From: the human T2T-CHM13v2.0 reference genome, Homo sapiens
Reading direction: 5' to 3' (one strand)
DNA: 64,000 bases
NCBI RefSeq assembly: GCF_009914755.1
Contig: NC_060929.1
The notes beneath the pieces are model-generated. The model was not told the origin of the DNA and made no database searches. It saw only the letters and a list, made by a program, of their open reading frames with translations. Below are positions 27,901-30,900 of this stretch, one piece after another. The translations under genes and the position numbers were made by a program. Within the stretch, counting starts at the first letter, position 1, and each line of letters opens with the position of its first letter.

Positions 27901-30900
27901 TATTTTCAGAAAACCATCTCCTGGATTCATTGATTTTTTTGAAGGGTTTTTCATGTCTCTGTCTTCTTCAGTTCTGGCCTGATCTTAGTTATTTCTTGTC
28001 TTCTGCTAACTTTTGAATTTGTATGTCCTTGCTCCTCTAGTTCTTTTAATTGTGATGTTAAGGTATCAGTTTTAGATCTTTCCTGCTTCCTCCTGTGGGC
28101 ATTTAGTGCTGTAAATTTTCCTCTAAGCACTGCTTTAGTTGTGTCCCAGAGATTCTGGTACATTGTATCTTTGTTCTCATTGGTTTCAAAGAACTAATTT
28201 ATTTGTGCCTTAATTTTCATTATTTGCCCAGTGGTCATTCAGGAGCAGGTTGTTCATTTTCCATGCAGTTGTGCGGTTTTGAGTGAGTTTCTTCTTCTTG
28301 AGTTCTAATATAGATTGCACTGTGGTCTGAGAGACTGTTATGGTTTCTTTTCTTTTGCATTTGCTGAGGAGTATTTTATTTCCAATTATGTGGTTGATTT
28401 TAGAATAAGTGCTATGTGGTGCTGAGAAGAATGTATATGCTGTTGATTTGGGGTGGAGAGTTCTGTAGGTGTCTATTAGGTCCACTTGGTCCAGAGCCGA
28501 GTTCAAGTCCTGAATATCCTTGCTAATTTTCTGTCTTGTTGATCTATCTAATATTGACAGTGGGGTGTTAAAGTCTTCCACTATTATTGTGTGGGAGTCT
28601 AAGTCTCTTTGTAGGTCTCTAAGAACTTGCTTTATGAATCTAGGTGGTCCTGTATTGGGTGCATATATATTTAGGAGTGTTAGCTCTTCTTGTTGCATTG
28701 ATTCCCTTTACCATTACATAATGCCCTTCTTTGTCTCTTTTGATCTTTGTTGGTTTAAAGTCTGTTTTATCAGAGACTAGAATTGCAACCCCTGATTTTT
28801 TGTTTTTTTGCCTTCCATTTGCTTGGTAATTATTCCTTCATCCCTTTATTTTGAGCCTATGTGTGTCTTTGCACGTGAGATGGGTCTCCTGAATACAGCA
28901 CACCGATGGGTCTTGACTCTTTATCCAATATGCCAGTCTGTGTCTTTTAATTGGTATATTTAGCCTGTTACATTTATGGTTAATATTGTTATATGTGAAT
29001 TTGATCATGTCAGTATGATGCTAGCTGGTTATTTTGCCAGTTAGTTAATGCAGTTTCTTCATAGTGTTGATGGTCTTTACAATTTTGTATGTTTTTGCAG
29101 TGGCTGGTACTGGTTTTTCCTTTCCATATTTAGTGCTTACTTCAGGAGCTCTTGTAAGGCAGGCCTGGTGGTGACAAAATCTCTCAGCATTTGCTTGTCT
29201 GTAAAGGATTTTATTTCTCCTTCATTTATGAAGCTTAGTTTGGCTGGATATGAAATTCTGGGTTGAAAATTCTTTTCTTTAAGAATGTTGAATATTGGCC
29301 CCCACTCTCTTCTGGCTTGTAGGGTTTCTGCAGAGAGATCCACTGTTGGGCTTCCCCGCAAAGGTCTGGTTACCCACAAAGGGAAGCCCATCAGACTTCC
29401 ATTACCAAGCAAATGGAAGTCTGATGGGCTTCCCTTTGTGGGTAACCCGACCTTTCTCTCTGGCTGCCCTTAACATTTTTTCCTTCATTTCAATCTTGGT
29501 AAATCTGATGATTATGTGTTTTTGGGTTGCTCTTCTCAAGGAGTATTTTTGTGGTGTTCTCTGTATTTCCTGAGTTTGAATTTTGGCCTGTCTTGCTAGG
29601 TTGGGGATGTTCTTCTGGATAATATTCTGAAAAGTGTTTTCCAACTTGGTTCCATTCTTCCCATCACTTTCAAGTACACCAATCCAATGTAGGTTTGGTC
29701 TTTTCACATAGTCCCATATTTCTTGGAGGCTTTTCATTCTTTTTCTCTAATCTTGTCTTCATGCTTTATTTCCTTAAGTTGATCTTCAATCTCTGATATC
29801 CTTTCTTCTGCTTGATTGATTCAGCCTTTGATACCTTTGTATGCTTCACGAAGTTCTCATGCTGTGTTTTTAGCTACATCAGTTCATTTGGTTTTTCTCT
29901 AAACTGGTTATTCTAGTTAGCAATTTCTCTAACCATTTTTCAAGGCTGTTAGCTTCCTTGCATTGGGTTAGAACATGCTCCTTTAGCTTGTAGGAGTTTA
30001 TTACCCACCTTCTGAAGCCTACTTCTGTCAATTCATCAAACTCATTCCATGTCCAGTTATGTTCCCTTGCTGGTGAGGAGTTGTGATTTTTTGGAGGAGA
30101 AGAGGCATTCTGGTTTTTGGAATTTTCAGCCTTTTTGCACTGATTTTTCCTCATCTTTGTGGATTTACCTACCTTTGGTCTTTGATGCTGAAGCCCTTCG
30201 GATGGGGTTTCTTTGTGGACAATCTTTTTGTTGATGTTGATGCTATCCCTTTCTATTTGTTGCTTTCCTTCTAATAGTCAGGCCTCTCTGCTGCAGGACT
30301 GCTGGAGTTTCCTGGAGGTCCACTCAAACCCTGTTTGCCTGGTTATCACCAGCGGAGGCTGCAGAACAGCAAAGATTGCTTCCTGTTCCTTCATCTGGAA
30401 GCTTCATCCCAGGGGGGCATCTGCCAGATGCCAGCTGAAGCTCTCCTTTATGAGGTGCCTGTCAATCCCTGCTGTGAGGTATTTCCCAGTCAGGAGTCAG
30501 GGGGGTCAGGGAGCCACTTGAGGAGGCGGTCTGTCCCTTGGCAGAGCTCAAGGGCTGCTGCAGGGAGATCCGCTGCTCTTTTCACAGCCTGCAGGCAAGA
30601 ACGTTTAAGTCTCCTGAAGCTGCCCCCACAACTGCCCCTTCCCTTAGGTCGTCTGTCCGGGAGATGGGGGTTTCATCTATAAGCCCCTGACTGGGGCTGC
30701 TGCCTGTTTTTCAGAGATGCCCTGCCTAGAGAGGAGGAACCTAGAGAGACAGTCTGGCTGCAGCCGCTTTGCCAAGCTGCGGCGGGCTCCGCCCAGTTTG
30801 AACTTCCAGGCGGCTTTCTTTACACTGTGAGGGGAAAACTGCCTACTGAAGCCTCAGTAATGGCAGATGCCCCTGTCCCCATGAAACTCGAGCATCCCAG

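What the first reader, a model, noticed from the sequence alone, without database searches (positions are those of the whole stretch)
29348..29455. 70-bp templated insertion forming a 44-bp hairpin exactly at the identity boundary; the paralogous site in L1 #2 carries a 13-bp deletion
Seen: L1 #1 has 70 extra bases (29348-29417). They consist of a short direct copy GGGCTTCCC, a 38-bp inverted copy of the adjacent sequence, and a self-complementary TCCATT...AATGGA cap, giving a 44-bp stem with an 8-nt loop. At the same position L1 #2 reads GGGT-ACCC-TGGCTG (37307-37320), 13 bp shorter. Left of this site the copies are ~99% identical; right of it they are markedly diverged. Inference: these are template-switch scars (Pol theta/FoSTeS-type) marking either a breakpoint of the event that built the composite or a heterology barrier where conversion tracts stop.
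Basis: partly seen in the sequence, partly recalled or inferred. Interest (0 to 1): 0.7.

Follow-up and report, generated by a model that had tools for sequence, protein, structure and literature searches.

The report
Repair-scar hairpin inside a LINE-1 doublet
A 70-base insertion that folds into a hairpin sits in an old human LINE-1 copy and is likely an ordinary DNA-break repair scar, but the pair of LINE-1s around it, with a spacer that has a second copy on chromosome 1, likely arrived as one 14.6-kb block and likely swapped sequence later.

Summary
The 70-bp insertion (29348-29417) and 44-bp stem are real and absent from 20 of 20 other L1 copies; the 13-bp deletion in L1 #2 is real but 27 bp away. 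All 70 bases parse as four template copies. The 'cap' is a 17-nt inverted copy of 28814-28830, 517 bp away, that likely folded back and primed the 41-nt arm: a complex templated insertion of a known kind. The identity claim is overstated: left of the site the copies run 88, 96, 99.7 and 93-97%; the 99.7% tract ends 1.5 kb away. The old homogenised tract most likely ends at about 29490, just right of both lesions, and a second homogenised patch lies further right, so the hairpin is not a hard barrier; chance co-location is 8-14%. The tract (4.3% diverged) is younger than the composite (spacer 8.4% from its chr1 paralogue). The more unusual result is outside the finding: one 16-bp target-site duplication flanks the whole 14.6-kb L1-spacer-L1-Alu block, whose spacer matches chr1, where neither L1 is present. 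Function: probably none.

The parts
29348..29417 (-). 70-bp complex templated insertion in ORF1 of L1 #1; on the L1-sense strand 17 + 41 + 4 + 8 nt, no target bases lost
   Evidence: junction found once in the genome with up to 2 mismatches; site maps to ORF1p just before the C-terminal domain by the paralogous L1 #2 frame
29360..29455 (.). 44-bp stem, one mismatch, 8-nt loop, made by the insertion plus the adjacent L1 sequence
28812..28830 (+). template of the loop/cap (17 copied bases 28814-28830 plus 2-nt microhomology), 517 bp from the insertion point
37307..37320 (.). junction of the 13-bp deletion in L1 #2 (equivalent to 29445-29457)
24995..31495 (-). L1 #1, full length, tail at the left
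   Evidence: subfamily label L1PA7/8-like is recalled, not tested
32923..39366 (-). L1 #2, full length, tail at the left
31496..32922 (.). spacer; 31496-32801 has a paralogue at G000:C1:49391077-49392359 (-), 8.4% non-CpG difference; homology stops exactly at the 5' end of L1 #1
24759..24774 (.). left copy of the outer target-site duplication
39369..39384 (.). right copy of the outer target-site duplication (16 bp, 1 mismatch; 14,610 bp from the left copy)
24770..24994 (-). Alu with a 69-bp internal deletion, between the L1 #1 tail and the left TSD copy
25781..29492 (.). old homogenised tract between L1 #1 and L1 #2 (patchy; about 4% non-CpG difference)
26227..27815 (.). recent homogenised tract, 5 mismatches in 1583 columns, 76 shared derived non-CpG changes
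29633..29825 (.). further homogenised patch to the right of the hairpin

Best explanation
The 70-bp insertion is a four-piece copy of nearby sequence in ORF1 of an old L1 and is likely a one-off break-repair scar, likely formed during or after an old gene conversion between the two tandem L1s and likely without function. Shown: each piece has a template and a short matching primer. Inferred order, on the L1-sense strand: the 3' end of the right-hand DNA end (ending CATCAGACT) primed by CT at 28812-28813 and copied 16-17 nt; the new end folded back on itself (2-3 bp, 8-nt loop) and copied 41 nt of its own strand, which made the 44-bp stem; it re-primed by CCTTT and added 4 nt; re-primed by GG and added 8 nt; and joined the left end by 1 nt with no loss. 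Only this strand order explains the 6-bp cap without coincidence. Enzyme inferred, not shown (Pol theta end joining or MMBIR-type foldback). The 13-bp deletion in L1 #2 is most likely a separate later lesion. The identity steps come from at least two rounds of interlocus gene conversion in a block that was assembled earlier.
For: Full parse with 2 mismatches in 70 nt; 19-nt distal match; 0 of 20 other copies carry either lesion; junction unique in the genome. Conversion: 36 shared derived non-CpG changes in 1466 columns at 27816-29347 against 12 in 1805 at 29493-31495; the two copies group at 100/100 in 27816-29347 (17 rows, 5 left out for coverage). Tract probably covers both lesions: posterior 0.48-0.81 that it ends at 29445-29492, 0.01-0.14 that it ends left of the insertion, so private lesions inside it are no older than it. 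The 2-nt primer CT exists only in L1 #1 (1 of 22 rows) through a change private to L1 #1, a weak hint that the scar is later than the tract. Chance that large indels of both copies lie within 40 bp somewhere: 0.14; both within 140 bp of one of four tract ends: 0.08.
Against: The tract end is only about 75 bp from the insertion and 35 bp from the deletion, and both chance values are below 0.15. The shared-versus-private model alone puts the end left of the insertion (0.50 on 29225-29299, 0.25 on 29303-29459). Insert divergence (2 of 68) fits the old tract's age (P 0.43), so a single event cannot be excluded. The 16-nt core of the distal template is common in L1 (7 of 20 outgroups), so the local copy is the simplest template, not the only one. 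No orthologue or haplotype was available, so no lesion is dated directly.
Confidence: 0.6

Rival explanations
1. The scar marks the start of the old conversion: a break in L1 #1 at 29347/29418, whose right-hand 3' end made several abortive template switches and then copied L1 #2 leftwards for about 3.5 kb.
For: The reconstructed 3' end points towards the tract; the distal template also exists in L1 #2 (18-nt match); insert divergence fits the tract's age; tract end within about 75 bp.
Against: Homogenised sequence seems to continue right of the insertion and again at 29633-29825; the better primer is private to L1 #1; it does not explain the deletion in the donor.
Confidence: 0.2
2. Both lesions are older than the conversions and act as a heterology barrier at which tracts stop.
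For: Shared derived changes thin out after 29225 and private changes cluster from 29493.
Against: Patch 29633-29825 is homogenised (permutation p 0.0005; 0 of 190 outgroup pairs as alike); 61 columns right of the insertion show no independent difference; other tract ends have no large indel and 4- and 8-bp indels lie inside the 99.7% tract.
Confidence: 0.1
3. The two lesions are the reciprocal junctions of the event that built the block: a chr1-derived piece (3' part of one L1, spacer, 5' part of another L1) integrated into one resident L1 at this ORF1 coordinate.
For: The outer TSD pairs the 5' end of L1 #2 with the tail side of L1 #1, as integration into one resident L1 predicts; the lesions are 27 bp apart in L1 coordinates.
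Against: Insert differs from its templates at 2 of 68 where 5.7 are expected at spacer age (P 0.067); the later tract probably spans both lesions; in-register joining with no loss fits repair of one molecule; the lineage test that could pair 5' and 3' ends had no power.
Confidence: 0.07
4. The hairpin is processed from ATG10 intron RNA into a small RNA antisense to L1 ORF1 and is kept for that.
For: RNA fold -97.4 kcal/mol, z -12.7; lies in an ATG10 intron (annotation given with the finding); a 30-nt arm stretch has 3226 exact genomic matches, control 0; template switching has made intronic miRNA stems (PMC10710096, abstract and passages).
Against: Best Rfam score 52 bits against a gathering score of 100, all 14 matches below threshold and explained by stem shape; no miRNA annotated in the window; low divergence around it (2 changes in 314 columns) is nearly matched by minima of 3 in three outgroups; that paper counts over 6,000 such hairpins for at least 18 miRNA genes.
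Confidence: 0.03

Closest known systems
Complex germline MMBIR-type templated insertions (Osia et al. 2021, PMC8421209; passages and part 1 of 2 of section 10 read)
   Same: Inverted copy of a template within 100 bp, several templates in one insert (up to five reported), short microhomology at junctions; 33 of 103 and 26 of 99 germline calls in two people were complex.
   Different: Here one template is 517 bp away and supplies the foldback primer; the event is in the reference and probably millions of years old.
Pol theta templated insertions, TINS (Carvajal-Garcia et al. 2020, PMC7165422; passages) and snap-back SD-MMEJ (Khodaverdian et al. 2017, PMC5728401; passages)
   Same: Direct and inverse repeats of flanking DNA, iterative priming from 1-5 nt, hairpin-primed synthesis.
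   Different: Primary tracts there are rarely over 10 bp, AT-rich and almost always local (distal under 0.1% of repair); here 17 and 41 nt, 53% GC, one distal template.
Foldback inverted insertions at breaks in yeast (PMC11724301; passages)
   Same: One end folds back, extends, unwinds and is captured by the other end with 0-5 bp microhomology.
   Different: Single step, pre-existing inverted microhomology, Pol delta plus NHEJ; here the primer was itself imported.
Short template-switch mutations (Loytynoja and Goldman 2017, PMC5453318; passages)
   Same: One event creates a near-perfect hairpin in the human genome.
   Different: Their four-point model covers one switch and return, not multiple rounds or long-range jumps.
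Interlocus gene conversion between tandem paralogues (Mansai et al. 2011, PMC3924818; passages)
   Same: Mosaic of tracts of different age between copies over 80% alike.
   Different: Tracts here are 1.6 and about 3.7 kb, longer than their 10-100s bp estimates; may be sums of tracts or expansion-contraction by unequal crossover.
L1 partnered transductions (PMC12350158; passages) and the chr11 tandem L1 array (PMC13192797; passages)
   Same: L1 plus flanking DNA from another locus inside one TSD, two tails.
   Different: The passenger would be about 8 kb and include a second full-length L1; the chr1 locus carries neither L1 today; the two L1s are not recent tandem duplicates (83-88% alike outside the tracts).

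Membership tests
Complex templated insertion (MMB-TI, complex class) | Insert is an inverted copy of a template within 100 bp | tested here: met
   38-nt inverted copy of 29418-29455
Complex templated insertion (MMB-TI, complex class) | Several templates in one insert | tested here: met
   17 + 41 + 4 + 8 nt
Complex templated insertion (MMB-TI, complex class) | Microhomology at the junctions | tested here: met
   2, 2-3, 5, 2 and 1 nt; the 1-2 nt ones are within chance
Complex templated insertion (MMB-TI, complex class) | Arises at a broken or stalled fork by BIR enzymes | not testable with these tools
   sequence only
Pol theta TINS | 5 bp or more directly or inversely repeated from the flank | tested here: met
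Pol theta TINS | Single synthesis tracts rarely over 10 bp | tested here: not met
   17 and 41 nt against PMC7165422
Pol theta TINS | Insert AT-rich relative to flank | tested here: not met
   37 of 70 bases are G or C, counted by hand
Pol theta TINS | Templates next to the break | tested here: inconclusive
   three local, one 517 bp away
Pol theta TINS | POLQ dependence | not testable with these tools
   ancient germline event
Interlocus gene conversion | Tracts where paralogues share derived changes and group together, beside tracts where they do not | tested here: met
Interlocus gene conversion | Non-reciprocal transfer with known donor | not testable with these tools
   needs orthologues; expansion-contraction by unequal crossover gives the same mosaic
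L1-mediated transduction (whole block) | One TSD flanks element plus passenger | tested here: met
   score 14; 0 of 240 mismatched flank pairs reach 11; 7 of 16 outgroup L1s with both ends reach 11 or more; best of five pairings tried, inner pairings 8 and 4
L1-mediated transduction (whole block) | Tail after the driver L1 and a second tail at the 3' end | tested here: met
   T-runs at about 32936, 24995 and 24770
L1-mediated transduction (whole block) | Passenger DNA maps to another locus | tested here: met
   chr1 paralogue of 1306 of about 1430 spacer bases
L1-mediated transduction (whole block) | Source L1 present beside the passenger at that locus | tested here: not met
   no full-length L1 of this kind in C1:49372501-49410000; empty site at the L1 #1 junction, truncation at the other end
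miRNA precursor | Rfam gathering score or annotated locus | tested here: not met
   no miRNA row in the annotation
miRNA precursor | Processed 22-nt products | not testable with these tools
   no expression data

The most novel reading that the evidence does not exclude
The whole 14.6-kb block entered chr5 in one L1 reverse-transcription event: a roughly 14.4-kb cDNA of full-length L1, chr1 spacer and a second full-length L1, copied from a chr1 source allele that has since been lost. The doublet then became a natural recombination reporter that recorded two rounds of conversion and a multi-step repair scar at a tract end.
Probability: 0.45. Interest if true: 0.6.

Novelty: new member of a known kind. 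Interest (0 to 1): 0.38.

Why it matters
The scar is a clean, fully parsed germline example in which a primer imported from 517 bp away creates the foldback that writes a 44-bp hairpin; useful as an example, not a new mechanism. The surrounding block matters more: if it is one retrotransposition it would show L1 copying about 14 kb including a second full-length L1 and would preserve a lost chr1 source allele; if it is a recombinational integration it is an inter-chromosomal insertion hidden inside an L1. Either way, two same-strand L1s 7.9 kb apart with a 1.6-kb 99.7% tract are a predicted substrate for 7.9-kb deletions or duplications in an ATG10 intron and a directly testable case for where conversion tracts end.

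Tried and rejected
Tandem duplication of the L1 middle at the time the spacer arrived: rejected, tract 4.3% versus spacer 8.4%. Identity steps as mere ORF2 conservation: rejected, shared derived changes and tree support. Insertion inherited from a source element: rejected, 0 of 20 copies and one genomic junction (also none of 40 scored of 148 candidates). Intrinsically structured fragile site: the ancestral sequence folds no better than shuffles (z 0.20 and 0.46) and 0 of 82 outgroup gaps of 8-100 bp end at 29340-29500. Each L1 with its own TSD: not found (scores 8 and 4), but half the outgroups lack one too. chr1 copy as a daughter transduction of L1 #2: no tail or TSD seen there. Missing spacer end 32802-32925 elsewhere in the genome: not found among 40 scored of 143 candidates. 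Pairing 5' and 3' L1 ends by sub-lineage: no power, positive control about zero. Continuity of an older repeat across the empty chr5 site: both flanks single-copy, uninformative. The two L1s as sisters outside the tracts: 87/86 and 86/90 support only, 12 and 7 shared changes, top of 231 and 136 pairs by count but rank 20 and 4 by ratio; left open. Literature: no paper on this locus in the listing for ATG10 / LINE-1 / gene conversion (15 of 354 listed); none with tandem L1 plus transduction plus TSD (0 papers), nor an evident doublet case in the listings; three classic papers on transduction lengths and breakpoint micro-insertions were not held, so I give no record length. No supplements were read.

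Full report
1. Observation. The window holds two full-length minus-strand L1s, 24995-31495 and 32923-39366, 7.9 kb apart. L1 #1 has 70 extra bases at 29348-29417 and L1 #2 lacks 13 bases equivalent to 29445-29457. I fetched the 20 best-scoring of the 39 other L1 copies listed (a second set of 20 could not be fetched) and aligned them: 0 of 20 carry either lesion. The stem is 44 bp with one mismatch and an 8-nt loop, -54.3 kcal/mol, 0 of 200 shuffles as stable. The loop junction occurs once in the genome. The paralogous frame matches solved L1 ORF1p (2ldy, 2yko; E about 1e-47), which puts the site just before the C-terminal domain of ORF1.

2. Anatomy of the insert. An exact-match scan of the window found that 29401-29419 is the reverse complement of 28812-28830 (19 nt; 18 nt to the L1 #2 paralogue); 1.4e-6 such hits are expected in 2 kb. 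On the L1-sense strand the 70 nt parse as 17 nt from 28814-28830, 41 nt copied from the same strand after a foldback (1 mismatch), 4 nt after re-priming at CCTTT (1 mismatch) and 8 nt after re-priming at GG, then a 1-nt join with no loss. The order is my inference: read from the other strand, the TCC of the cap would need a template not yet made. The T at 28830, shared by both L1s and absent from most outgroups, does not prove a local template, because the foldback would add the same base. The 2-nt primer CT is found only in L1 #1 (1 of 22 rows). This is a complex templated insertion like those of Osia et al.; it departs from typical Pol theta insertions in tract length, GC content and template distance. 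The enzyme cannot be named from sequence.

3. The identity boundary. Raw identity is a mosaic: 88.4% (25010-25800), 96.0%, 99.7% (26227-27815), 92.6%, 97.1% (28405-29492), 84.8% (29493-29632), 96.4% (29633-29825), 83.3% (lowest penalty; at higher penalties 27816-29825 is one 94.8% segment, and the best single change point is 29826). Polarised against the outgroups, non-CpG columns show 76 shared and 4 private changes in 26227-27815, 36 shared and 62 private in 27816-29347, and 12 shared and 230 private in 29493-31495: gene conversion, or equivalent unequal crossovers, in at least two rounds. Where the old tract ends depends on the model: 29225-29299 is best when only derived sites are used; with all columns 29492 is best, 95% 29420-29511, and the posterior that it ends left of the insertion is 0.01-0.14 over four settings. 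The patch 29633-29825 is also homogenised (p 0.0005 in 2000 permutations; 0 of 190 outgroup pairs as alike; HMM posterior only 0.62; it holds just 1 shared non-CpG change). With 4 and 3 private indels of 8 bp or more, a pair within 40 bp arises by chance in 14% of trials and a pair near one of four tract ends in 8%. So an old tract does end near the site, but the lesions probably lie just inside it and are not a hard barrier.

4. Relative ages. Spacer versus chr1: 107 of 1271 non-CpG columns differ (8.4%); old tract: 64 of 1479 (4.3%), Fisher p 1e-5; recent tract 0.3%. With recalled neutral divergences (human-chimpanzee about 1.2%, human-macaque about 6.5%) these are very roughly 30-40, 15-25 and under 2 million years; these dates come from no call. 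The insert differs from its templates at 2 of about 68 bases: P 0.43 at the old tract's age, 0.067 at the spacer's; arm-to-arm correction or polymerase errors could bias this either way.

5. How the block arose. The spacer has one long paralogue among 40 scored candidates, G000:C1:49391077-49392359, 90% over 1306 bases. Homology begins exactly at the 5' end of L1 #1, at a TSD-like AAATATCTTTATCTTT followed by AA, and chr1 continues there into single-copy DNA with no L1; at the other end chr1 is cut off inside an LTR-like repeat (type recalled as MST/THE1), and the last 120 bp were not found elsewhere. Neither L1 has its own TSD, but the 5' flank of L1 #2 matches the flank beyond the Alu at the tail of L1 #1 over 16 bp with one mismatch, 14,610 bp apart. 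Controls: 7 of 16 outgroups with both ends score 11 or more, 0 of 240 mismatched pairs do, the outer pair scores 14, as the best of five pairings tried. So the block L1 #2 - spacer - L1 #1 - Alu most likely sits in one target site. My odds: one reverse-transcription event (read-through of an L1 doublet on a lost chr1 allele, or a 5'-transduced L1 joined to a second L1 RNA) about 0.5; recombinational integration of a chr1 piece into one resident L1 about 0.35-0.4; chance TSD with chr5 native about 0.1. Against all of these, chr1 carries neither L1 today, and the test that could separate them had no power.

6. Function. None shown. The hairpin lies in an ATG10 intron, folds as RNA, and one arm is antisense to L1 ORF1 with 3226 exact 30-nt matches in the genome, but Rfam matches are shape-only and far below threshold and no expression data were available.

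7. Verdict. The single-TSD, chr1-linked L1 doublet is the part worth a comparative look. I found no paper on this locus (listings only); supplements and structural-variant catalogues were not seen and may record it.

Noticed in passing
window 24759-39384: Whole L1-spacer-L1-Alu block lies inside one 16-bp target-site duplication; spacer has a 90% paralogue on chr1 that lacks both L1s.
   Followed up: yes
window 26227-27815 and 34167-35757: 1.6-kb tract at 99.7% identity between the two L1s, likely a recent conversion; predicted substrate for 7.9-kb deletion or duplication alleles in the ATG10 intron.
   Followed up: partly
window about 39520-43040: Full-length plus-strand SVA-type element (label recalled) with a 2.6-kb GC-rich VNTR, flanked by a GAAAGTCGAG duplication, 150 bp upstream of the L1 #2 5' end.
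   Followed up: no
window 29088-29492: L1 #1 has only 2 non-CpG changes in 314 columns, the lowest of 22 copies, though three outgroups reach 3 somewhere; unexplained, possibly chance.
   Followed up: partly
window 27816-28100: Private changes are lopsided, 15 in L1 #1 against 4 in L1 #2.
   Followed up: no
window 39355-39368: The 5' terminus of L1 #2 differs from that of L1 #1 and resembles outgroup L033, hinting at a different sub-lineage.
   Followed up: partly
window 22001-24064: Older L1 3' fragment in two opposite orientations, the pattern of a 5'-inverted insertion.
   Followed up: no
window 10472-11494: L1 3' fragment ending about 35 bp before the alternative ATG10 exon 11530-12122 (and annotation).
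   Followed up: no
window 24770-24994: Alu in the L1 #1 tail has a 69-bp internal deletion and lacks the 2-bp insert seen in four other Alus of the window, an AluY/Sc-like state (label recalled).
   Followed up: no
L010 2120-4270 and L009 6833-8302: Two younger 5'-inverted L1 insertions flank the chr1 paralogue, 270 and about 790 bp from it; the first has a clear TSD.
   Followed up: no
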